From Alphaproteobacteria bacterium (GTDB lineage Bacteria > Pseudomonadota > Alphaproteobacteria > UBA828): a stretch of 64,000 nt of DNA. This document shows, one piece after another, positions 4,765 to 19,868 of this stretch (position 1 is the first letter of the stretch; each line of letters starts with the position of its first letter). The stretch is taken from contig CAXXVO010000009.1 of assembly GCA_963422645.2 (NCBI GenBank), positions 32,001 to 96,000 of the forward strand, written 5' to 3'. Under the pieces are notes generated by a model. That model made no database searches. It was not told the origin of the DNA and worked only from the letters and a program-made list of their open reading frames with translations. The translations under genes were made by a program, and so were the position numbers.

Positions 4765-5228
4765 TGCTCCGTCCTTTCCCGTTCTCGCGACCGCTGCCGG
4801 CCGTCCCCAACGGCCTTGTGTACACCATTGTAGGGGGACGAAAGTCATTGCGAATCCGGAAGATGCCGGGAAGAAGGCGGAAGAGGGCGGACGGTCAAGG
4901 GGTTGGCGGCGTTTCCGGGGTCTGGCGGGCCGGACGAAAGTCTTTGCGAATCCGGCCCGGAAAGGGCCGTGAATTGGCTGGAAACGGTGATTTTCGGGGC
5001 GTTTCAGGGGTGCTGAAAGGCCTGTATGTCAATCGGCTTTCAATACTGACCCCCGATCGGCGTGCAAAATTGACCCCCCTGAGTGGCACGGCGGAGGTTG
5101 TCCCGGTAGCCAATAGGGGGGACCCGCGCGGCTTCGTGTGGCGCCCTGCGCTACGCGGAGCGAAGCCGCGTGGGGGGTCCCTGTTGGCCCACCGGGGCAA
5201 CCGGGCCGCAAGGGAGGCCGGCGGCGGG

Positions 5229-5957
5229 TCAGGAGCGGTTCTTGAAGCGCCAGCTCTCGTTGCCGGTCTCGATGATCTCGCAATGATGGGTGAGGCGATC
5301 GAGCAGCGCTGTGGTCATCTTGGGGTCGCCGAAGACGGATGGCCATTCGCCGAAGGCGAGGTTTGTGGTGATGACGATCGAGGTGCGCTCGTAGAGCCGG
5401 CTCATCAGATGGAAGAGCAGCTGCCCACCGGCCTGGGCGAAGGGCAGGTAGCCGAGCTCGTCGAGGATGACGAAGTCGCGGCGGACGAGCTGGTCTGCAG
5501 TGCGGCCCTGGCGTCCGGCGCGAAGCTCGGCCTCGAGGAGGTTGACCAGGTCGACGACGTTGTAGCACCGGCCGCGCGCGCCCTTGCGGATGCAGGACCG
5601 CGCGATGGCGACGGCGAGATGGGTCTTGCCGGTACCGGTGCCGCCGACCAGCACGATGTTGCGTTTGCCCTCGAGGAAGCCGCCGCCGGCGAGCTCCTGG
5701 ATCAGGGGCTCGTTGACCGGCGAGGCGGCGAAGTCGAAGTCGGCCAGCTCCTTGACCGTCGGCAGCTTGGCGGAGGCCATCTGGTACTTGATCGAGCGGG
5801 CCCTCTTGTCGGCGATCTCGACCTGCAGCAGCGTACCGATGATCTGTTGCACCGGATGGCGGCGCTTGAGCCCGTCGGCAAGGATGTCGTCGTAAGCGGC
5901 GCGCATACCTGCGAGCTTCAGCTGGGTCATCATCTCCAGCACATCATGACGCTCCAT
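5229..5957 (-). CDS. istB: IS21 helper AAA+ ATPase IstB
   Basis: Walker A GGTGTGKT, Walker [24 protein letters not shown]. Confidence 0.95.
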
Positions 5958-7458
5958 GACCGGCCTCCCTCAGGCTGTCGTAGCGCTGACAGTCGGCTAC
6001 CGGCTTGTGGCGAAGCTGCAGGCCCTCGGGCGTCGGGATGATTGCCGGCGGTGCCGGCTGGCGCTGCCGGGCGAGGATGTTGAGCACCACGTCGGCGCTG
6101 CAGGCACCGCAGTCGAGCGTCTCGGCACAGGCCGCCTCAACCGCCTCCAGTCCGTCCTCCAGCACCGCCGCGAGCACCTTGACGAACTGCCGGTCGCCGT
6201 CGTCGTGGCCCGCGAGCCGGGTTCGCAGGCGGCCGAGCGCGTTGGGCAACTGCCAGTCCTTGAAGGGCGCGCCATTGCGTAGCGCGCCGGGCTTCCGCGT
6301 CAGGATCGGCACGTAATGCCACGGATCGTAGACGAACCGGCCGCGCCCGAAGCTGCGGGGGTGCTCGGCAACGGTCTCGCCGTCCTGGCGGATGACGATC
6401 CGATCGGCATAGGCCCGCACGTCCACCGGCCGGCCGACGGCGCGGGCCGCGACGCTGTACTGGTTGTTGTCGAAGCGCACCAGACAGGTCTTCGAGACCG
6501 ACACCTCGCTGGCATGGAAGCCGTCGAAGGGGCCGCGATACGCCATCAGGAAGGGCTGCTCCTCCTCGAACACCTGCCACACCGTCTTGCCCGGGATTGT
6601 CGGATGCGGATGCTTCTTGGCGTCCTCGATGCACCGATCCATCAGCCACTCGTTGATCTCGGCGTAGGAGCGGCCCCGCGGGATGGGCACGAACAGGCGG
6701 CCGCGAAGGTCACCCACCTGCTTCTCGACCTGCCCCTTCTCCCAGCCAGCCCCTGGCGTGCACGCCACAGGCTCCACCAGATGGTGCGAGCACAGCTCCT
6801 GGAAGCGGCGGTTGTAGTCCCGCTTCTTGCCCACGAAGATCGTGCTCACCGCCGTCTTCATGTTGTCGTAGATGCCCCGCCGGCAGACCCCGCCGAAGAA
6901 GCGGAAGGCACGCTCGTGCGCCTCGAAGACCATCTCCTGGCTCTCGCGGGGAAAGATCTGGACCAGATACATCCGGCTGTGGCACAGCCGCATGTGCGCC
7001 GCCTTCACCCTGGTCGTCGCGCCCGACAGACGCGCGTACTCGTGGCTCCAGTCGAACTGGTAGGCCTCGCCGGGATCGAAGATCAGCGGCACATAGGCCT
7101 GCGCCGGCGACAACAGCCGCCACCGGCGCCGCCAGGCCCTGGCATAGCGGCGAACCGCGTCATAGCCGCCCTTGTAGCCCAGCGACACAAGGTCTTCATG
7201 AATCCGCAGAAGAGACAGCCGATCCTTGCGTGCCTTCTTCTCGTTGGCCTTCAGCTGGCGCTCAAGCTCCTCCACCCACAGCCCAAGCTTCGGCATCGGC
7301 TGGATCTTGCGCTCGTAGCTGTGCGAGGTCGCATCGCCCCGCACCACCTTGCGTATCGTGTTCTTGGAAACCCTCAAATCCCGGGCGAGCTTCTTGATCG
7401 GAACGCCCTTCACCAGATGATCCCGACGGATCTTCGCGATCGTTTCCACAACCAGCAT
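5944..7458 (-). CDS. istA: IS21 DDE transposase IstA
   Basis: N-terminal [27 protein letters not shown]. Confidence 0.95.
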
Positions 7459-7872
7459 CTCCCCCACCACCCCGTCCGTCCAAACGACGAGGTGTGTTCA
7501 TGGACACAAATCCAAGGGGGTCAATTTTGGACGCCGATCACCCCCAATAGGGGGTCACTTTTCCACGCTTAACAACACGCTCCTTCACGGCCCATGCACA
7601 GGCCGGTTTTTCCAGCCCGATTCAGCCCCGAAAACCAGACGATTTTCCAGGCCATTCGCAAAGACTTCCGGCCGCGATTCGCAAAGACTTTCGGCCGGCT
7701 ACAACCATTATCGGACCTTCTTCCGGAATGAAGAGAGATGAAGAGGGATGATGCGGGATAAAGCAGGAATCCTGGGGCTATCGAACAGCCTCGCTGAGCG
7801 AAGCGGCCGCGAGTCCACTTGGCAGGGCGCGACCAGCACCCGAAATCTGTGACGCGGGCGCGTCGCCCGACC

Positions 7873-10912: not shown

Positions 10913-12724
10913 TTACGAAGGGGTTGGCAAGCGCCATATGGAACTTCTCGCGGGCGTCGTAGGCGGGCTTGGCCTGTTCATCGTCGGGATGTGGCTCCTG
11001 ACGGAGAACCTCAAGAAGCTCGCGAGCCGGCGGCTGCGCCAGATTGCGCATGGCTGGACCGGAAACCCGTTTGGACGCCCTGAACGCAAAAGGCAACCTT
11101 CGCCTTCGGTGCTGTGGTTGCCGGGTTTCGACGGGTCTGGACCGCCGCCTGGCGATCCCGAGATTGGGATTGAATGGCGAATGGTGATTTTGTCCTCGGT
11201 GACCAACACCTCCTTCACGATGAGCCGGACGATGCGCTGCCGTTCGGCGATGTCCAGGGTTTCGGCGGACGAGTGCAGCCGCGCCAGAAAGCCGGTCAGC
11301 GTCTCGGCGAGCCGGAGATAGGTCTCGCGATCCTTCGCCCGATCGACGGTGGATTGCAGTTCGCGATTCAGAGCCTGATCCTGACGACGGAGCTCGGACG
11401 TTCTGTCGCGCAGTTCATCGATTGTAATCAACTCCTCCTGATAGGCGTTGACCAGGCGGTCGATGCTTTTTCGGACCCGGATCAGACGGTGCCGCAGGTC
11501 GTTCTCGCGCTGCTGGTTTGGATCGGAAGCGCGGGCCGCCTGTAGTCGCCGGTCGATCTCGGCGCCGATCAGTGCTGGATCCTCGAGCAGGCGGACCACT
11601 TCGCCCCAGACGACGTCATCGAGCAAGTCCTGGCGCACCGGCCGACTGTCGCACACCGGTCCGTTGAGATGGCGCCAAGAGTCAGAACCCAGGCAGCGAT
11701 AATAGGAGATCTTGCGGGCACTCGTCTGGGCCGATGTGCGAGACAGCGCGTAGCCGCATTTGCCGCACGAGACCAGTCCCTGGAGCACGCTGGGCGTCTT
11801 CGTGCGACGCGGCGCGTGGATCTTGTTCATCTCCAGCCGCTCTTCGGCCAGGGCGAAGGTCTCTTCGCTGACGATCGCCGGCACCGGGATCTCGATCCAC
11901 TCCTCACGCGGTTTTTCGTGACCGCCGGTCGTGCCGCTGGCCACGCCGCGGCGCAGGCGCAGAGGACGTGTCACACATTTACGCGGCATCTGGCGGGTCT
12001 TGCCGAAACAGGCTTTCCCCTTGTACGCCGGATTGCGGAGCATCGCCCACACCGTCGAGCGTTCCCAGCGCGAGCGCCCGGTGGAGGTGGGTACCGCGCG
12101 CTCATTGAGCCTGCAGGTGATCGCGCCGATGCTCATGTGATCGCAGGTGTAGCAGCGGTAAACCTCGCGAACCACCGACGCCTGCGGCTCGACGATTTCG
12201 TAGAACGCATCGCTGTCCGGGGTTTTCTTGTGGTAGCGGTAGCCATAGGGCGCGCCGCCGAGGACGGCGATTTCGCCGCGTCGCGCCCGATGTCGCTTGC
12301 CGCGCCGGGAACGCTCCAGGATTTGCGCGCGCTCGTATTCCGCAATCATGCCCTGGAACTGGACGAGCAGATGATCTTCCGGGGTTTCCATCGACGGCGC
12401 TCTCAAGAACACGGTCTCGACGCCCTGACGGGCCAGCTCCTCGATGATCAGAACCTGGTAGGCATAGCGCCGGCTCATACGGTCCGGGGCATGGACCAGC
12501 ACCGTGTCGATGCGCCCTTCCGCGGCGAGATCCCTGACCCGCTCGAGCCCCGGGCGTTCGAGAACGGCGCCGGTATAGCCGTCATCTTCAATGATCATGT
12601 CGGGCGCGACGCTGTAACCGTGGTCCTCGGCGTAGGCGATCAGGGCCTCGGTCTGGCTCGCTATCGTGTTGTCATCTCTCTGCCGCTCGCCGGAGACCCG
12701 CGCGTAAATGGCTGCGATCTTCAT
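10913..12724 (-). CDS. Large serine recombinase (resolvase, recombinase, Zn-ribbon, coiled coil); reads through the element end
   Basis: IYARVS catalytic serine, DRMSR, GGAPYGY, NPAYKG, CGKC..YYRC..C; element-encoded part ends LLRSGR at about 11074, stop lies in flanking DNA. Confidence 0.92.
   Translation of the reverse strand: MKIAAIYARVSGERQRDDNTIASQTEALIAYAEDHGYSVAPDMIIEDDGYTGAVLERPGLERVRDLAAEGRIDTVLVHAPDRMSRRYAYQVLIIEELARQGVETVFLRAPSMETPEDHLLVQFQGMIAEYERAQILERSRRGKRHRARRGEIAVLGGAPYGYRYHKKTPDSDAFYEIVEPQASVVREVYRCYTCDHMSIGAITCRLNERAVPTSTGRSRWERSTVWAMLRNPAYKGKACFGKTRQMPRKCVTRPLRLRRGVASGTTGGHEKPREEWIEIPVPAIVSEETFALAEERLEMNKIHAPRRTKTPSVLQGLVSCGKCGYALSRTSAQTSARKISYYRCLGSDSWRHLNGPVCDSRPVRQDLLDDVVWGEVVRLLEDPALIGAEIDRRLQAARASDPNQQRENDLRHRLIRVRKSIDRLVNAYQEELITIDELRDRTSELRRQDQALNRELQSTVDRAKDRETYLRLAETLTGFLARLHSSAETLDIAERQRIVRLIVKEVLVTEDKITIRHSIPISGSPGGGPDPSKPGNHSTEGEGCLLRSGRPNGFPVQPCAIWRSRRLASFLRFSVRSHIPTMNRPSPPTTPARSSIWRLPTPS
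10938..11073 (+). pseudogene. 5' fragment of Na/Pi cotransporter family gene, truncated at the recombinase element end
   Basis: MELLAGVVGGLGLFIVGMWLLTENLKKLASRRLR...TGNPF resembles NptA-type N-terminus; similarity stops at the inverted repeat and the rest of the gene is absent from the window. Confidence 0.72.
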
Positions 12725-12922
12725 GGTCGTCTCCTATGTCCTGCGCTCGGACCGGGATTTGCCGTGAAACAGATTCTGGCGAGGGACGCGCGGTGACGCT
12801 CCAACCCCGAGGTCACGGCGTTGGCTGAGACCGCCAGGGTCGGCGCGGCGGAGACGAGCGGTGGACTTCCCCGATGTGGTCCGAAGCGGTCCCGCGTAGC
12901 CGGCTGACGAGATGCGGGCCGC

Positions 12923-14173
12923 TCAGGCGGCCTTGAGTTCCGCGCCTACGGGCTCGATGTAGCCGTAGCGGCGGAGCATGCGGATCCACCGAGGAGCGTT
13001 GCGCTTGACCATCAGAGCGTCGTAGTCGGCCGTGCGGTCGTAGTAGGGCCTGCCGGTCTTGAGCACCACATAGATGATGCGCAGCATCTTGTGAGCGCCG
13101 GCGACGATGGCGCGCTTGTAGCCGCGCCGGGCGGCGAGGGCGCGGTGATGAGCCTCGAACTGGCACCCCTTGGTTCGGGCCGCGCCGTGGGCACACTCGA
13201 CGAGGCAGGCGCGCAGGGTCTTGGAGCCCATGCGGGTGCGTGCGTTGCGGCGCTTGCCCCCGCTCTCGTTGTTGCCGGGGCAGAGCCCGGCCCAGGCGGC
13301 GAAGTGCTCCTTGGAGGCGAACACGCCGATGTCGGGGCCGATCTCGATGAGGATGGTCGAGGCGGCGGTGCGGTCGATGCCGGGGATGGTGGTCAGCAGA
13401 CGGAGCTGCTCCTCCCACGGTGTCATCTGCCCGTCGATCTTCCTGGTGTAGGACGCGATGCGCGCCTCAAGCGCGTCATGCTCCTCCAGCAGGTCGTTGA
13501 GCATGAAGCGGTCGTTGTCGCCCAGGCTCAGGGTGAGCGCCTCGCCGAGCCCCTCCAGCTTGTTCGCAACGTGGCTGGTGAGCGAGGCGAGGATGACCTC
13601 GCGCGCCGTCCCCTGCGCCAGGCCGTCGAGGATCTTCCGGCCGTTGACGCCGAAGACGTCGGAGAGGATGCCGCCGATGCGCGCACCGGCGCGGTCGATG
13701 ATCTTCTGCACGCGGTTGCGCACGGCGGAGCGCTGCCTGACCAGGACGCGGCGCTGGCGGCTCAGTGCGCGCAGCTCCCGGAACGGCTCAGGCGGAACGT
13801 GGGAAGGCGTGCAGAGCCCGAACTGGCACACGCAGGCCAGCCACACGCTGTCCGCCACGTCGGTCTTGCGCCCCTTCAACTGCTTCACCTGACGCGCATG
13901 CACCAGGATCGCCTCGAGCCCGGCCGCCTCCAGGGCCGCGAAGGGCGCCTGCCAGTAGACCCCGGTCCCTTCCATCACCGCAGCCTCGACGCCGTGACCG
14001 GTCAGCCACGCGACCATCTCCTCCAGACCGCTCGGCAGCGTGCCGAAGCAGCGCGTCTCCACCACCGGCTCACCCTCGCCCTCACAGAGGCGAACCGTCG
14101 CGGTGATCTCCATCTTGTGCACGTCCAGACCCGCCGCGCGCGGCCGGACGACGTGCAAGCCTTCCGTCTTCAT
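12923..14173 (-). CDS. IS110 family recombinase/transposase, copy 1
   Basis: DEDD motifs GLDVHK, MEGTG, KTDVAD; C-terminal IPGI, WAGLCPGNNESGG; AGGAGG upstream of ATG 14173. Confidence 0.95.
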   Translation of the reverse strand: MKTEGLHVVRPRAAGLDVHKMEITATVRLCEGEGEPVVETRCFGTLPSGLEEMVAWLTGHGVEAAVMEGTGVYWQAPFAALEAAGLEAILVHARQVKQLKGRKTDVADSVWLACVCQFGLCTPSHVPPEPFRELRALSRQRRVLVRQRSAVRNRVQKIIDRAGARIGGILSDVFGVNGRKILDGLAQGTAREVILASLTSHVANKLEGLGEALTLSLGDNDRFMLNDLLEEHDALEARIASYTRKIDGQMTPWEEQLRLLTTIPGIDRTAASTILIEIGPDIGVFASKEHFAAWAGLCPGNNESGGKRRNARTRMGSKTLRACLVECAHGAARTKGCQFEAHHRALAARRGYKRAIVAGAHKMLRIIYVVLKTGRPYYDRTADYDALMVKRNAPRWIRMLRRYGYIEPVGAELKAA

Positions 14174-14220
14174 CGCCTTCCTCCTCATTTGCGCTCTCGC
14201 CACGGCGGCGTACGATCACG

Positions 14221-14420
14221 CCGTGGCATCGCCACGGTGGAGGCGGGGACAGCGGTCGGAAGAACACGCATCCGACGAGCGGGTGCGGTGCAATTTGCCG
14301 CGCGTCCACGGCCACGGGCCGGGTACAATACGGGGTGCGGAGCCGGCCGCCGGAAGCAGTTTTGTCATCGGGAACTACGTCACCGATATAACGACGCTCA
14401 CACGTCCCCACCTCCGCCAA
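14221..14420 (-). ncRNA. Putative IS110 bridge RNA (repeated at about 15989-16188 and 17758-17957)
   Basis: Non-coding region upstream of the transposase; 15-bp closing stem 14404-14418/14236-14250; two internal hairpins flanked by target-like and donor-like segments. Confidence 0.68.
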
Positions 14421-14527
14421 TACCCATCCTGACACGGCAAATGGGTGCAAGCGCAAGGAAAACGTCAGCCGAACCGCTCCTGTTTCATGCCACGGGGTGG
14501 CTCAGAACCGCGGGGACCATGACTGTT

Positions 14528-16296
14528 TGCCGTGAAACAGATTCTGGCGAGGGACGCGCGGTGACGCTCCAACCCCGAGGTCACGGCGTTGGCTGAGACC
14601 GCCAGGGTCGGCGCGGCGGAGACGAGCGGTGGACTTCCCCGATGTGGTCCGAAGCGGTCCCGCGTAGCCGGCTGACGAGATGCGGGCCGCTCAGGCGGCC
14701 TTGAGTTCCGCGCCTACGGGCTCGATGTAGCCGTAGCGGCGGAGCATGCGGATCCACCGAGGAGCGTTGCGCTTGACCATCAGAGCGTCGTAGTCGGCCG
14801 TGCGGTCGTAGTAGGGCCTGCCGGTCTTGAGCACCACATAGATGATGCGCAGCATCTTGTGAGCGCCGGCGACGATGGCGCGCTTGTAGCCGCGCCGGGC
14901 GGCGAGGGCGCGGTGATGAGCCTCGAACTGGCACCCCTTGGTTCGGGCCGCGCCGTGGGCACACTCGACGAGGCAGGCGCGCAGGGTCTTGGAGCCCATG
15001 CGGGTGCGTGCGTTGCGGCGCTTGCCCCCGCTCTCGTTGTTGCCGGGGCAGAGCCCGGCCCAGGCGGCGAAGTGCTCCTTGGAGGCGAACACGCCGATGT
15101 CGGGGCCGATCTCGATGAGGATGGTCGAGGCGGCGGTGCGGTCGATGCCGGGGATGGTGGTCAGCAGACGGAGCTGCTCCTCCCACGGTGTCATCTGCCC
15201 GTCGATCTTCCTGGTGTAGGACGCGATGCGCGCCTCAAGCGCGTCATGCTCCTCCAGCAGGTCGTTGAGCATGAAGCGGTCGTTGTCGCCCAGGCTCAGG
15301 GTGAGCGCCTCGCCGAGCCCCTCCAGCTTGTTCGCAACGTGGCTGGTGAGCGAGGCGAGGATGACCTCGCGCGCCGTCCCCTGCGCCAGGCCGTCGAGGA
15401 TCTTCCGGCCGTTGACGCCGAAGACGTCGGAGAGGATGCCGCCGATGCGCGCACCGGCGCGGTCGATGATCTTCTGCACGCGGTTGCGCACGGCGGAGCG
15501 CTGCCTGACCAGGACGCGGCGCTGGCGGCTCAGTGCGCGCAGCTCCCGGAACGGCTCAGGCGGAACGTGGGAAGGCGTGCAGAGCCCGAACTGGCACACG
15601 CAGGCCAGCCACACGCTGTCCGCCACGTCGGTCTTGCGCCCCTTCAACTGCTTCACCTGACGCGCATGCACCAGGATCGCCTCGAGCCCGGCCGCCTCCA
15701 GGGCCGCGAAGGGCGCCTGCCAGTAGACCCCGGTCCCTTCCATCACCGCAGCCTCGACGCCGTGACCGGTCAGCCACGCGACCATCTCCTCCAGACCGCT
15801 CGGCAGCGTGCCGAAGCAGCGCGTCTCCACCACCGGCTCACCCTCGCCCTCACAGAGGCGAACCGTCGCGGTGATCTCCATCTTGTGCACGTCCAGACCC
15901 GCCGCGCGCGGCCGGACGACGTGCAAGCCTTCCGTCTTCATCGCCTTCCTCCTCATTTGCGCTCTCGCCACGGCGGCGTACGATCACGCCGTGGCATCGC
16001 CACGGTGGAGGCGGGGACAGCGGTCGGAAGAACACGCATCCGACGAGCGGGTGCGGTGCAATTTGCCGCGCGTCCACGGCCACGGGCCGGGTACAATACG
16101 GGGTGCGGAGCCGGCCGCCGGAAGCAGTTTTGTCATCGGGAACTACGTCACCGATATAACGACGCTCACACGTCCCCACCTCCGCCAATACCCATCCTGA
16201 CACGGCAAATGGGTGCAAGCGCAAGGAAAACGTCAGCCGAACCGCTCCTGTTTCATGCCACGGGGTGGCTCAGAACCGCGGGGACCATGACTGTTT
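14528..16296 (-). mobile_element. IS110 family element, copy 2 (1769 bp, one extra T at junction)
   Basis: ORF translations identical to copy 1; directly abuts copies 1 and 3. Confidence 0.92.
14691..15941 (-). CDS. IS110 family recombinase/transposase, copy 2
   Basis: Protein identical to copy 1. Confidence 0.95.
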   Translation of the reverse strand: MKTEGLHVVRPRAAGLDVHKMEITATVRLCEGEGEPVVETRCFGTLPSGLEEMVAWLTGHGVEAAVMEGTGVYWQAPFAALEAAGLEAILVHARQVKQLKGRKTDVADSVWLACVCQFGLCTPSHVPPEPFRELRALSRQRRVLVRQRSAVRNRVQKIIDRAGARIGGILSDVFGVNGRKILDGLAQGTAREVILASLTSHVANKLEGLGEALTLSLGDNDRFMLNDLLEEHDALEARIASYTRKIDGQMTPWEEQLRLLTTIPGIDRTAASTILIEIGPDIGVFASKEHFAAWAGLCPGNNESGGKRRNARTRMGSKTLRACLVECAHGAARTKGCQFEAHHRALAARRGYKRAIVAGAHKMLRIIYVVLKTGRPYYDRTADYDALMVKRNAPRWIRMLRRYGYIEPVGAELKAA

Positions 16297-18064
16297 TGCC
16301 GTGAAACAGATTCTGGCGAGGGACGCGCGGTGACGCTCCAACCCCGAGGTCACGGCGTTGGCTGAGACCGCCAGGGTCGGCGCGGCGGAGACGAGCGGTG
16401 GACTTCCCCGATGTGGTCCGAAGCGGTCCCGCGTAGCCGGCTGACGAGATGCGGGCCGCTCAGGCGGCCTTGAGTTCCGCGCCTACGGGCTCGATGTAGC
16501 CGTAGCGGCGGAGCATGCGGATCCACCGAGGAGCGTTGCGCTTGACCATCAGAGCGTCGTAGTCGGCCGTGCGGTCGTAGTAGGGCCTGCCGGTCTTGAG
16601 CACCACATAGATGATGCGCAGCATCTTGTGAGCGCCGGCGACGATGGCGCGCTTGTAGCCGCGCCGGGCGGCGAGGGCGCGGTGATGAGCCTCGAACTGG
16701 CACCCCTTGGTTCGGGCCGCGCCGTGGGCACACTCGACGAGGCAGGCGCGCAGGGTCTTGGAGCCCATGCGGGTGCGTGCGTTGCGGCGCTTGCCCCCGC
16801 TCTCGTTGTTGCCGGGGCAGAGCCCGGCCCAGGCGGCGAAGTGCTCCTTGGAGGCGAACACGCCGATGTCGGGGCCGATCTCGATGAGGATGGTCGAGGC
16901 GGCGGTGCGGTCGATGCCGGGGATGGTGGTCAGCAGACGGAGCTGCTCCTCCCACGGTGTCATCTGCCCGTCGATCTTCCTGGTGTAGGACGCGATGCGC
17001 GCCTCAAGCGCGTCATGCTCCTCCAGCAGGTCGTTGAGCATGAAGCGGTCGTTGTCGCCCAGGCTCAGGGTGAGCGCCTCGCCGAGCCCCTCCAGCTTGT
17101 TCGCAACGTGGCTGGTGAGCGAGGCGAGGATGACCTCGCGCGCCGTCCCCTGCGCCAGGCCGTCGAGGATCTTCCGGCCGTTGACGCCGAAGACGTCGGA
17201 GAGGATGCCGCCGATGCGCGCACCGGCGCGGTCGATGATCTTCTGCACGCGGTTGCGCACGGCGGAGCGCTGCCTGACCAGGACGCGGCGCTGGCGGCTC
17301 AGTGCGCGCAGCTCCCGGAACGGCTCAGGCGGAACGTGGGAAGGCGTGCAGAGCCCGAACTGGCACACGCAGGCCAGCCACACGCTGTCCGCCACGTCGG
17401 TCTTGCGCCCCTTCAACTGCTTCACCTGACGCGCATGCACCAGGATCGCCTCGAGCCCGGCCGCCTCCAGGGCCGCGAAGGGCGCCTGCCAGTAGACCCC
17501 GGTCCCTTCCATCACCGCAGCCTCGACGCCGTGACCGGTCAGCCACGCGACCATCTCCTCCAGACCGCTCGGCAGCGTGCCGAAGCAGCGCGTCTCCACC
17601 ACCGGCTCACCCTCGCCCTCACAGAGGCGAACCGTCGCGGTGATCTCCATCTTGTGCACGTCCAGACCCGCCGCGCGCGGCCGGACGACGTGCAAGCCTT
17701 CCGTCTTCATCGCCTTCCTCCTCATTTGCGCTCTCGCCACGGCGGCGTACGATCACGCCGTGGCATCGCCACGGTGGAGGCGGGGACAGCGGTCGGAAGA
17801 ACACGCATCCGACGAGCGGGTGCGGTGCAATTTGCCGCGCGTCCACGGCCACGGGCCGGGTACAATACGGGGTGCGGAGCCGGCCGCCGGAAGCAGTTTT
17901 GTCATCGGGAACTACGTCACCGATATAACGACGCTCACACGTCCCCACCTCCGCCAATACCCATCCTGACACGGCAAATGGGTGCAAGCGCAAGGAAAAC
18001 GTCAGCCGAACCGCTCCTGTTTCATGCCACGGGGTGGCTCAGAACCGCGGGGACCATGACTGTT
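16297..18064 (-). mobile_element. IS110 family element, copy 3 (1768 bp)
   Basis: Same unit; right junction gactgTTTTgtgagt. Confidence 0.92.
16460..17710 (-). CDS. IS110 family recombinase/transposase, copy 3
   Basis: Protein identical to copy 1. Confidence 0.95.
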   Translation of the reverse strand: MKTEGLHVVRPRAAGLDVHKMEITATVRLCEGEGEPVVETRCFGTLPSGLEEMVAWLTGHGVEAAVMEGTGVYWQAPFAALEAAGLEAILVHARQVKQLKGRKTDVADSVWLACVCQFGLCTPSHVPPEPFRELRALSRQRRVLVRQRSAVRNRVQKIIDRAGARIGGILSDVFGVNGRKILDGLAQGTAREVILASLTSHVANKLEGLGEALTLSLGDNDRFMLNDLLEEHDALEARIASYTRKIDGQMTPWEEQLRLLTTIPGIDRTAASTILIEIGPDIGVFASKEHFAAWAGLCPGNNESGGKRRNARTRMGSKTLRACLVECAHGAARTKGCQFEAHHRALAARRGYKRAIVAGAHKMLRIIYVVLKTGRPYYDRTADYDALMVKRNAPRWIRMLRRYGYIEPVGAELKAA

Positions 18065-18175
18065 TTGTGAGTTTGATCGGGCACCAGGATCGCGTAGGCG
18101 TTGTGGAGTTTGGCGTCGAGCAGACGATCGAAGGCATAAGCGAGGTGAACCGTGGGCCGAGCGCCCAAGCGACGT

Positions 18176-18505
18176 TCAGCCATGCCGATCCGCGTCCGAT
18201 AAAAAGCGTCTCAGCGCCCGCGCGACGATCTCCCCGATGGAGTGGCCGCTGCTCCTGGCGTGGGCTCGCAAGGTCTCCGCCAGAGTGCCTGGAATCTTGA
18301 TGGTGATCGGGATCAGCTCTTCGGTCGGCTCGGCCGGCTGGCCCATGGCGCGCGCGTCCTGGACGTAGCGATAGGACTGACGCTGCGACAGCCCGAAGCG
18401 CTGCGACAGCCGTGCCACGGCTTCGCTCGCCGTGGCGCCCTGGGCGAGCAGCGTGTAGGCGGCATTGAGCCGCTCGACCTTCTGGGATCTTGTTGACCGG
18501 ATCAT
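18176..18505 (-). CDS. Small DNA-binding protein (N-terminal HTH-like, C-terminal ribbon-helix-helix-like)
   Basis: 109 aa; LSQRFGLSQRQSYRYV and ITIKIPGTLAETLRAHA..SIGEIVARALRRFL; first gene of the recombinase element. Confidence 0.68.
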   Translation of the reverse strand: MIRSTRSQKVERLNAAYTLLAQGATASEAVARLSQRFGLSQRQSYRYVQDARAMGQPAEPTEELIPITIKIPGTLAETLRAHARSSGHSIGEIVARALRRFLSDADRHG

Positions 18506-18516
18506 TTGCCATAAGA

Positions 18517-18546
18517 ATATTACCGTTTGCGGCGCAAGTCAGTCAA
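18517..18546 (-). promoter_or_regulatory. Possible sigma70-type promoter of the recombinase element
   Basis: Minus strand TTGACT-18 nt-TAATAT in an AT-rich patch just before ATG 18505. Confidence 0.4.
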
Positions 18547-18602
18547 GGGACGGTCTCGCCATTCCACAATCTGACGTTCGAAGCGGAAGTTACCTTTTGC
18601 GT

Positions 18603-19868
18603 TCAGGGCGTCAGCGCGCAGCATGCGAGGTAATTTGCGAGGCGCGTGTTGCGCAGGACCGCGACGTTGGCGGCCCTGTACAGCTCGAAGTCGGCTTCAA
18701 GATCGGCGATCGGCGGCGGGCTGACCGCCACCGTGGGCATGATGAGAACGCCGTGCCGCCTGATCCGCGCGTGGAGACGCCCGGCGATCTCGGCAAGACC
18801 CTGCTTGGCCCGGTCGGCGTCGGTTGCTGACATCTGGGCGCCGGAGCGGATGCGCTCCTGGATGGGTGTGTAGACCAGCTCGGGCCGCGACTCGATCACG
18901 TCGTACCAAAGCGCGTGGCATTCGGCGGCGTGATAGGGGCCGAGTCGACCGACCAGCGCCTCGGCCTCATCGAACTCGGGCACCGGCGTCTCGTCGATGG
19001 TGCAGCCGGCGGCGCGCAGGCGCTCGACCGCGCCGCGTGAGGCCGCCTCCACGTGGGGATCCAGCGAGCCCCAGACGAGTGTGGTCGGGAACGCGAAACG
19101 GGTGCGCGAAACTGTGGCGCCTTCGAGGTCGGGCGCCGGGCGGTTGCCGGCGCCGAAGCGCCCGTCGAGCACGGCGAAGAGGGCGGCAGCGTCGGCCACG
19201 TCTTGGGTCAGCGGGCCGACCGTGTCCATGCTGGTGCTGAGCCCCAGCACGCCATCCAGCGGCAGCAGCCCAAAGCTCGTCTTAAGACCGACGAGTTCGT
19301 TCCACGCGGCAGGCACACGCACGGAGCCGCCCGTGTCCGAGCCGATGGCGGCGGCGGCAAGGCCGCGCGAGAGGGAGACGGCCGCGCCCGAGGACGACCC
19401 GCCGGGCAGGCGGGCGAGGGACTCGTCGAAGGGATTGGGCGGCGTGCCCAGCTTGGGATTGAGCCCGAGGATGGAGAAGGCGAACTCGCTCTGGTTGGTC
19501 TTGCCGAGGCAGACCAGGCCTGCGCGGGTGGCGCGCGCTAGAACCGTCGCATCGCGTCGGGCGACGCGGTCCGCCAGAGCCGGCGTGCCGTGGCCGGTGA
19601 TGTCGCCGGCGCTGTCGTAGAGGTCCTTCCACGAGATCGGCACGCCGTCCAGCGGCGATTGTCTGAGGCCGGTCCGGGCACGCCGGTGGGCGGCGTCGGC
19701 CTCGGCGCGGGCGCGCTCGGCGGTGAGGCGCAGGTAGATCGCGCGGTCGCCGTCGGCAGCCTCGATCCGCTCGAGGAAGAACGCGGTCAGCGCACGTGGA
19801 TCGATGGCGCGGCTCCCGATGCCTGCGCCGAGCGCAAGCGCGCTCATCCGATGCCAGTCGCCGCTCAT
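18603..19868 (-). pseudogene. Amidase signature family protein, C-terminally truncated by the recombinase element
   Basis: SWKDL, GGSSSG, IGSDTGGSVR; ends abruptly LACCALTP* with the stop inside the inverted repeat; lacks the usual GLPxGxQ-type tail. Confidence 0.8.

What the first reader, a model, noticed from the sequence alone, without database searches (positions are those of the whole stretch)
12758..18064. Head-to-tail triple array of apparently identical IS110 elements at one site
Seen: three 1768/1769-bp units with no spacer. Junctions read ccgggaTTTgccgtg (outer left), gactgTTTgccgtg, gactgTTTTgccgtg and gactgTTTTgtgagt (outer right). Established: IS110 elements excise as circles whose end-to-end junction is the donor site. 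Inference: each internal junction is a chromosomal copy of that donor joint, so the array could arise by repeated integration at its own junction, concatemer integration or unequal crossover, and could shed or regain copies. The 3T vs 4T difference suggests either core slippage in a T-run during separate events or a homopolymer sequencing error.
Basis: partly seen in the sequence, partly recalled or inferred. Interest (0 to 1): 0.75.

Follow-up and report, generated by a model that had tools for sequence, protein, structure and literature searches.

The report
Tandem arrays of one jumping gene
Three identical copies of a small RNA-guided jumping gene sit head to tail inside another mobile element, one of six such arrays in this genome, probably because each insertion re-creates the short landing site next to itself; tandem copies of this family are already known, but this is an unusually clean natural example.

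Summary
Window 12761-18062 carries three letter-identical 1765-bp bodies of an IS110-family element (transposase on the minus strand). T runs of 3, 3, 4 and 4 bases flank and separate them. It is not a single event. The genome has 47 identical copies at 36 loci, six of them arrays of 2, 2, 2, 3, 3 and 5 copies. The 11 inner joints are six 3T and five 4T. The array sits inside a 2.2-kb serine-recombinase element whose five paralogues carry 0, 0, 1, 2 and 3 copies at the same site. Empty paralogues show that an insertion adds exactly 3 T. The target is the 6-base motif YTTTGT with a TT core. Insertion re-creates this motif at one end. A 5'-UTR segment covaries with the target flank in relatives, so it is probably a bridge-RNA guide. 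Most likely the element's own recombination builds the arrays. The extra T in five joints is unexplained but is unlikely to be a sequencing error. No spanning reads could be examined. Tandem IS110 copies are already in print (IS117; 2025-26 preprints). Verdict: a real, well-documented new member of a known kind.

The parts
12758..18066 (-). Whole array: three IS110-family copies plus their flanking and internal T runs
12761..14526 (-). Copy 1. This is the IS proper (1766 bp: the 1765-bp body plus one T that belongs to the element's left end in gene orientation). A TT core lies on each side, at 12759-12760 and 14527-14528.
   Evidence: T arithmetic from empty paralogues; exact identity
14529..16294 (-). 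Copy 2. It is joined to copy 1 by a 3T run (14526-14528), the expected donor joint.
16298..18063 (-). Copy 3. It is joined to copy 2 by a 4T run (16294-16297), one T more than conservative recombination predicts.
12923..14173 (-). Transposase gene of copy 1 (416 aa from the ATG; 426 aa from an upstream GTG at 14203). The same gene lies at 14691-15941 and 16460-17710.
14359..14369 (-). Candidate target guide of a bridge RNA in the 5' UTR of copy 1 (also at +1768 and +3537). It has the same letters as the left flank, the core and the first two bases of the element.
   Evidence: covaries with the flank in relatives; unpaired in the consensus fold
14433..14441 (-). Candidate donor guide in the 5' UTR of copy 1. 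It is the exact reverse complement of the last 6 bases of the element's right end plus 3 A.
   Evidence: relatives differ only by C-to-U changes that still allow G:U pairs
18063..18068 (+). Re-created 6-base target motif at the array's outer right end. Its first T is supplied by the element itself.
   Evidence: target logo; motif read
11074..12757 (-). Left part of the host element (2234 bp when empty), with a 30-bp terminal inverted repeat at 11074-11103
18067..18612 (-). Right part of the host element, with a 30-bp terminal inverted repeat at 18583-18612
10913..12724 (-). Large serine recombinase ORF of the host element. It starts 34 bases from the array and runs out through the element's end without a stop.

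Best explanation
This is a real chromosomal head-to-tail array of three copies of an active IS110-family, bridge-RNA-guided insertion sequence, built by the element's own site-specific recombination.

Shown: the element recognises only a 6-base site, YTTTGT in window orientation, with TT as the exchanged core. One insertion adds 1766 bp plus a second core. The element's own terminal T, the core and the untouched TGT re-create the full motif at the window-right end of the inserted copy.

Inferred: a further circle can integrate there, or the same reaction can run between copies on sister chromosomes. Either route gives a joint with 3 T, identical to the circle's donor joint, and the array grows one unit at a time. 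The inner joints are chromosomal donor sites, so recombination between them or with the outer ends can also shed units.

Not explained by conservative exchange: five of the eleven joints in the genome, including the copy 2/3 joint here, carry one extra T. I take this as a register slip or strand slippage in the T run at the joint.
For: (1) Identity and number. There are 47 letter-identical copies at 36 loci, with 6 arrays of 2, 2, 2, 3, 3 and 5 copies, all deep inside long contigs.

(2) A natural series. The 2234-bp host element occurs five times with 0, 0, 1, 2 and 3 copies at the same base.

(3) T arithmetic. In all 4 site families with empty paralogues (2, 1, 23 and 66 empty copies), the filled loci have the empty T count plus 3.

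(4) Target logo. In 32 distinct sites, information lies in six positions only (T23/C8/A1, T31, T32, T31, G32, T28; 12.2 bits) and nowhere else within 20 bases either side.

(5) Joint types. All 11 inner joints are 3T or 4T, none is 2T or 5T, and the outer right run is 4T in 35 of 36 loci. This fits growth at the re-created site and not insertion into the joint.

(6) Guide. The UTR segment 14369-14359 equals left flank, core and the element's first two bases. In relatives it changes together with the flank. Over 16 distinct guide/junction pairs the mean contiguous match was 6.62 for own pairs against 4.07 for pairs with other guide types (alignment).

(7) Protein. It matches IS110 models and the IS621 and ISCro4 structures.

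(8) Excess. Uniform choice among 417 or 987 motif sites predicts 2.5 or 1.1 re-insertions, against 11 seen. 0 of 5000 simulations reached 11.

(9) Reads. One run (X16) has a 52-base contig with the 4T joint at depth 19. The five-copy flank is at 19.1 and the IS body at 139. The tool warns that these depths are not copy numbers.
Against: No read spanning the array was seen. All four runs laid were contigs, the table was cut, and a 3T-joint contig was not among the rows shown.

Conservative exchange cannot make the 4T joints while leaving the outer runs canonical.

The excess over random re-use means that a re-created site alone is not enough. A local bias or later amplification is needed, and the number of viable sites is unknown.

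The six loci in other genomes that carry the same guide and ends (L016-L020, L022) hold single copies only, and 0 of 57 related loci have a second complete copy within 4.5 kb.

Other, unrelated elements in this genome also occur as tandem pairs, at seven further loci. That points to a generic duplication process or, less likely, to an assembly habit.

The guide register was chosen after a first register gave no signal.
Confidence: 0.55

Rival explanations
1. Generic tandem duplication. Misaligned exchange or replication slippage occurs between the short T runs that flank a single copy, as happens between the target-site duplications of other insertion sequences. RecA-dependent unequal sister exchange then raises or lowers the copy number. 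The transposase plays no direct part.
For: Seven other adjacent tandem pairs exist in the same genome. They belong to unrelated elements: an IS630-like element, a Transposase_29 element, a 1.9-kb element with its 9-base duplication as spacer, an AAA/Toprim unit, and a second IS110-type element. Exchange within T runs of unequal length would naturally give joints of 3 or 4 T. Joint patterns such as 4,4,3,3 and 3,3 look like amplified joints.
Against: Microhomology of 2-4 T is very short. Arrays of more than two copies occur only for this element: 11 joints in 47 copies, against about 1-3 pairs in elements with 81-89 copies. At sites whose left run is 2T, slippage should also give 2T joints, and 0 of 11 are 2T. 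Tandem duplications are normally lost quickly unless they are re-made.
Confidence: 0.2
2. Integration of a multimeric circle. Dimeric or trimeric circles form by recombination between donor joints or by rolling-circle copying of the excised form, and integrate in one step.
For: Donor-donor recombination of IS621 is reported to be efficient (abstract and passages of bioRxiv 10.64898/2026.08.31.748434). A single event would explain identical copies and canonical outer runs.
Against: Multimers made from canonical circles would carry only 3T joints, yet 5 of 11 are 4T and mixed arrays exist (3,4 and 4,4,3,3). The 0/0/1/2/3 series at one site type looks stepwise. No contig consisting of the IS alone is in the assembly: every copy found has flanks.
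Confidence: 0.1
3. Assembly artefact. The locus holds one copy (or fewer than three), and the assembler strung circle-derived or mis-overlapped reads into a tandem.
For: No spanning reads were examined. Tandem pairs of several repeat families occur in this one assembly. The genome is extremely repeat-rich, with elements of 81-89 copies.
Against: The arrays lie deep inside contigs of 90-870 kb, and 47 identical 1.8-kb repeats were resolved. The joint T counts are discrete and the outer runs are perfectly regular. A contig with the 4T joint exists in a public run, at a depth like that of the five-copy flank. That run may, however, be the source of the assembly, and joint words alone do not separate arrays from circles.
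Confidence: 0.07

Closest known systems
IS117, the Streptomyces coelicolor 'minicircle' (IS110 family), and its tandem insertions (Smokvina et al. 1994, Mol Microbiol 12:459)
   Same: An IS110-family element that exists as a circle, integrates site-specifically, and is found as tandem insertions.
   Different: I saw only the title, in the reference list of PMC2194683. The paper itself is not held, so its explanation of the tandems could not be compared. Here there are six natural arrays of up to five wild-type copies in one genome.
[quoted passage not shown]
   Same: Head-to-tail multi-copy IS110 loci are found by comparative genomics (their Fig. 4C legend gives n = 437). Repeated local insertion and duplication are proposed, and the lack of target immunity is noted.
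   Different: [quoted passage not shown] Here the target is only 6 bases and is re-created at one end. The joints here are exact donor joints or donor joints plus one T. Their supplements and figures could not be seen, so similar cases may be in them.
Tandem cargo repeats of CazIS110-1 (bioRxiv 10.1101/2025.10.25.684509; passages read)
   Same: An IS110 system produced tandem repeats of the element in vivo (3 of 96 colonies).
   Different: There the tandems reverted under continued induction and were judged transient by-products. Here arrays are present in the consensus genome at six loci.
IS621 and ISCro4 bridge recombinases
   Same: The protein matches their solved structures (E 6e-16 and 3e-15). 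The guide-bearing non-coding RNA region lies upstream of the gene. There is a 2-base core. A guide extends into the first bases of the element, like the 'handshake guide' mentioned.
   Different: The target information here is 6 bases with almost nothing on one side. From memory, IS621 reads about 14. No Rfam family matched, and the fold of this RNA is not established.
Tandem IS dimers of copy-out-paste-in families, e.g. (IS30)2 (PMC9333248, abstract seen in the listing)
   Same: The ends of two copies abut, separated by a few bases, and the joint equals that of the circular intermediate.
   Different: Those are DDE transposases with inverted-repeat ends. This element has no terminal inverted repeats (10-14 of 40 positions match) and uses an RNA guide.

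Membership tests
IS110 family (RNA-guided transposase) | N-terminal DEDD RuvC-like domain plus C-terminal Transposase_20 (Tnp) domain | tested here: met
   Pfam PF01548 at 83 bits and PF02371 at 75 bits. NCBIfam NF033542 at 270 bits against a cut-off of 140. Matches to IS621 (8wt6) and ISCro4 (9t56). Individual catalytic residues were not checked one by one.
IS110 family (RNA-guided transposase) | No terminal inverted repeats | tested here: met
   Comparing the first 40 bases with the reverse complement of the last 40 gives 10 matches, and at best 14 over shifts of -5 to +5.
IS110 family (RNA-guided transposase) | Conservative insertion with a short core repeated at both ends and no longer target duplication | tested here: met
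   Filled sites equal the empty site plus 3 T in all 4 site families with empty paralogues (92 empty copies). This means a 1766-bp element plus a second TT core.
IS110 family (RNA-guided transposase) | Bridge RNA in a non-coding end, with guides that match the donor ends and the target | tested here: inconclusive
   The target-guide segment covaries with the flank. The donor-guide segment is a 9-base exact complement of the right end. However, there is no Rfam match, no transcript evidence, and the two-loop fold is not established. The second target guide was not found.
IS110 family (RNA-guided transposase) | Circular excised intermediate | not testable with these tools
   Contigs cannot separate circle joints from array joints.
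Tandem IS arrays whose inner joint equals the donor joint | Inner joint identical to the right-end/core/left-end joint expected of the circle | tested here: met
   6 of 11 joints, including 14526-14528, have the 3T predicted by the arithmetic. The other 5, including 16294-16297, have one T more.

The most novel reading that the evidence does not exclude
This element is a natural 'self-retargeting' bridge recombinase. Its target guide reads only one side of the core, plus bases that the element's own end also supplies. Every insertion therefore makes a new, equally good or better landing site, and arrays are its default product.

The canonical 3T joints are live donor sites that the recombinase keeps resolving. 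The 4T joints put the two donor half-sites one base out of register and so freeze the tandem. That would explain why nearly half of the surviving joints carry an extra T although single insertions never do.

Arrays would then act both as chromosomal circle factories (3T joints) and as fossils (4T joints), and may have fuelled the burst to 47 identical copies.
Probability: 0.25. Interest if true: 0.7.

Novelty: new member of a known kind. Interest (0 to 1): 0.5.

Why it matters
Bridge recombinases are being developed as programmable tools for inserting DNA. The rules that decide whether a product site can be hit again determine whether one gets single or concatenated insertions. This genome offers a natural experiment: one element, 32 distinct sites, matched empty sites, a 0/0/1/2/3 copy series, and two discrete joint types. 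It suggests that a short, one-sided target allows re-insertion, and that one base in the joint may switch a donor site on or off. It also documents a recent burst of insertion sequences, with mobile elements nested inside one another, in a marine alphaproteobacterium.

Tried and rejected
- **Tandem Repeats Finder** cannot see the array, because its longest period is 500. It listed only an 18-base internal repeat.
- **Rfam** gave no family at threshold, only a sub-threshold sRNA match inside the coding region.
- **Sigma-70 promoter scan** across the joint found 0 sites. A joint promoter, as described for other circle-forming elements, is therefore neither shown nor excluded in this GC-rich host.
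- **Reads laid on the window**. In X17 and X19 no 4T-joint contig was listed, and in no run was a 3T-joint contig among the rows shown. The table was cut (46 rows hidden), so this says nothing either way.
- **First guide/flank comparison** used a register one base off and showed no signal (own pairs 3.7 matches of 10, cross pairs 4.3). After inspecting the alignment I shifted the register. That second test is therefore post hoc.
- **A covarying guide for the other side of the target** was looked for by eye. None was convincing.
- **Surveys for arrays elsewhere.** None was found in 43 other genomes of the family with a 400-base joint probe (only 15 candidates scored per genome). None was found in 48 other genomes of the order with the protein. 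None was found in 57 related loci from other genomes. L040 has only an internal 1348-bp duplication.
- **The second IS110-type tandem pair** (C8:627142) could not be interpreted, because its true ends are unclear.
- **The 1994 IS117 paper** is not held.
- **Paper searches.** Searches for tandem arrays of the IS110 family found no text that attributes arrays to a re-created target. One search was too broad to be useful.
The question was answered from coordinates instead.
Full report
**Observation.** The window holds three direct copies spaced 1768 and 1769 bases apart. The 1765-bp bodies at 12761-14525, 14529-16293 and 16298-18062 are identical letter for letter. They are bounded by T runs of 3 (12758-12760), 3 (14526-14528), 4 (16294-16297) and 4 (18063-18066) bases.

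Each unit has one long ORF on the minus strand. It carries Pfam DEDD_Tnp_IS110 and Transposase_20. It scores 270 bits on NCBIfam NF033542 'IS110 family RNA-guided transposase' against a cut-off of 140, and it matches the solved IS621 and ISCro4 transposases. The likely start is the ATG at 14173, behind a purine-rich ribosome site. This leaves a 5' untranslated region of about 353 bases and a 3' region of about 162 bases. The ends are not inverted repeats (10-14 of 40 positions match).

**Wider setting.** The window is C10:32001-96000 of a 5.9-Mb, 23-contig, 67% G+C genome. The genome holds 47 exact copies of the body, plus one slightly damaged copy. They lie at 36 loci: 30 single copies and six head-to-tail arrays of 2, 2, 2, 3, 3 and 5 copies. 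The 11 inner joints are six 3T and five 4T, never 2T or 5T. The outer right run is 4T at 35 of 36 loci.

The array in the window is nested in another mobile element:
- It is 2234 bp long when empty and has 30-bp terminal inverted repeats.
- Its only gene is a large serine recombinase.
- Its five copies carry 0, 0, 1, 2 and 3 copies of the IS at the same base, 34 bases upstream of the recombinase start.

**Target and arithmetic.** Several insertion sites lie in other repeated elements, so the genome supplies its own empty sites. There are 2, 1, 23 and 66 empty paralogues for four site families. In every family the two outer T runs of the filled loci sum to the empty run plus exactly three. The donor joint therefore has 3 T, the exchanged core is TT, and the element proper is 1766 bp.

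A logo of the 32 distinct reconstructed sites carries information at six consecutive positions only, YTTTGT in window orientation (12.2 bits). There is nothing else within 20 bases on either side. After insertion, the element's terminal T, the core and the untouched TGT re-create the whole motif at the window-right end of the copy. The other end does not match the motif. [quoted passage not shown] For this short, one-sided target, it does.

**Bridge RNA.** No Rfam family matches. Even so, the 5' UTR contains a 9-base exact reverse complement of the element's right end plus the A run (window 14441-14433). It also contains an 11-base segment (14369-14359) with the same letters as the left flank, the core and the first two bases of the element.

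I fetched 57 related loci from other genomes, defined their ends and aligned their UTRs.
- The right end is conserved in all of them. The donor-guide segment differs only by C-to-U changes, which still allow G:U pairs.
- The target-guide segment changes together with the flank. Relatives that sit in a repeated palindromic site carry that site's letters in the guide.
- Over 16 distinct guide/junction pairs, the contiguous match averaged 6.62 for own pairs against 4.07 for pairs with other guide types.
- A first attempt, one base out of register, showed nothing, so the second test is post hoc.
- In a consensus fold the segment is unpaired inside a conserved stem, but the full two-loop architecture is not established.
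- That the guide extends into the element's own first bases recalls the 'handshake guide' of IS621 (mentioned; details from memory). It means that the product junction matches the guide at least as well as a fresh site.

**How the array formed.** The simplest reading is that the element's own recombination adds units at the re-created site. This could be integration of further circles, or the same reaction between copies on sister chromosomes. Both give a 3T joint and leave the outer runs canonical, as seen.

Insertion into the inner joint, or into the T run at the other end, would give 2T+4T pairs or a 2T outer run. Neither occurs.

Re-use is far above random. With 417 (T form) or 987 (T and C forms) motif sites, uniform choice predicts 2.5 or 1.1 re-insertions, against 11 observed. 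0 of 5000 simulations reached 11. The number of viable sites is unknown, however, so this argues for a local bias rather than proving one.

**The extra T.** A homopolymer calling error confined to inner joints is therefore unlikely.

In run X16 a separate 52-base contig carries the 4T joint at depth 19. The five-copy flank is at 19.1 and the IS body at 139. The tool warns that such depths are not copy numbers, and this run may be the source of the assembly.

Possible origins of the extra T are a register slip on the homopolymeric core, slippage when a single-stranded circle is copied, or misaligned exchange between the flanking T runs. A bolder idea is that 4T joints put the two donor half-sites out of register and so survive, whereas 3T joints keep being resolved. 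This would agree with the report that experimental IS110 tandems revert.

**Evidence against, and rivals.**
- No spanning read could be examined. All runs laid were contigs and the tool's single call is spent.
- A genome-wide self-comparison found seven further adjacent tandem pairs. They belong to an IS630-like element, a Transposase_29 element (three loci), a 1.9-kb element with its 9-base duplication as spacer, an AAA/Toprim unit and a second IS110-type element. A generic duplication process, or an assembly habit, therefore cannot be dismissed. Only this IS forms arrays longer than two, and it does so far more often per copy.
- Relatives with the same guide and ends are single at all six loci seen. 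0 of 57 related loci have a second complete copy within 4.5 kb. One locus has an internal 1348-bp duplication.
- The 400-base joint probe matched full-length only in this genome: 11 places, and 0 in the 43 other genomes of the family.
- A 2015 run under the same species label shows the host element empty and only low-depth, roughly 3%-diverged relatives of the IS. The burst therefore looks recent and strain-specific.

**Comparison with what is known.** Tandem insertions of an IS110-family element were studied for IS117 in 1994; I saw only the title, and the paper is not held. [quoted passage not shown] A 2025 preprint saw tandem repeats in 3 of 96 colonies. The kind is therefore known.

What is new here is the detail. 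One genome holds six arrays and matched empty sites. The target is short and one-sided and is re-created by insertion. There is a covarying guide. There are two discrete joint types. My searches found no text that attributes arrays to a re-created target. Supplements were closed and may hold similar cases.

**Verdict.** This is a well-documented new member of a known kind, of moderate interest.

Noticed in passing
window 11074-12757 and 18067-18612; paralogues G000 C6:~198684-200924, C8:633549, C8:727381, C19:~32282: A 2234-bp element occurs in five copies. It has 30-bp terminal inverted repeats and a single gene, a large serine recombinase (Resolvase, Recombinase and Zn_ribbon_recom domains). 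The ORF has no stop codon inside the element, so its length is 556, 603, 662, 722 or more than 800 aa depending on the flank. A minimal transposon-like unit with only a large serine recombinase is unusual.
   Followed up: partly
window ~5027-7577 and about 80 other places in G000: A 2.5-kb element with a Transposase_29 gene occurs in about 81 copies. A 1.9-kb element with no Pfam match occurs in about 89 copies. A further site family has 67 copies and another 26. The genome has undergone a massive insertion-sequence expansion, with elements nested in one another.
   Followed up: partly
G000 C3:142339-144713, C3:162518-166182, C7:70967-76003, C8:174448-179334, C8:627142-630310, C9:406457-410257, C9:629562-634449: There are seven more adjacent tandem pairs, belonging to other repeated units. 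They include a second IS110-family element (period 1582) and a pair whose 9-base target duplication is the spacer.
   Followed up: partly
L036 ~5890-5925; L027 5908 and 6055; L040 2834-5948: Relatives in other genomes show small-scale end duplications: a 15-base repeat of the right end, and a second right end 147 bases downstream. One relative has an internal 1348-bp tandem duplication. This is reminiscent of the one-sided 'repeat unit' growth described in the 2026 preprint.
   Followed up: no
window 14433-14441 versus L018-L022: This genome's IS differs from its 98%-identical relative at 45 alignment columns. These include a one-base deletion and a C/T change inside the candidate donor guide, which lengthen its match to the right end from 7 to 9 bases. 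Whether this relates to the burst is unknown.
   Followed up: no
runs X1 versus X16, X17 and X19 on window 12300-14600: A 2015 run under the same species label has the host element empty and lacks the identical IS. Later runs, and one run labelled as another organism, hold the IS at 7-15 times the flank depth.
   Followed up: partly
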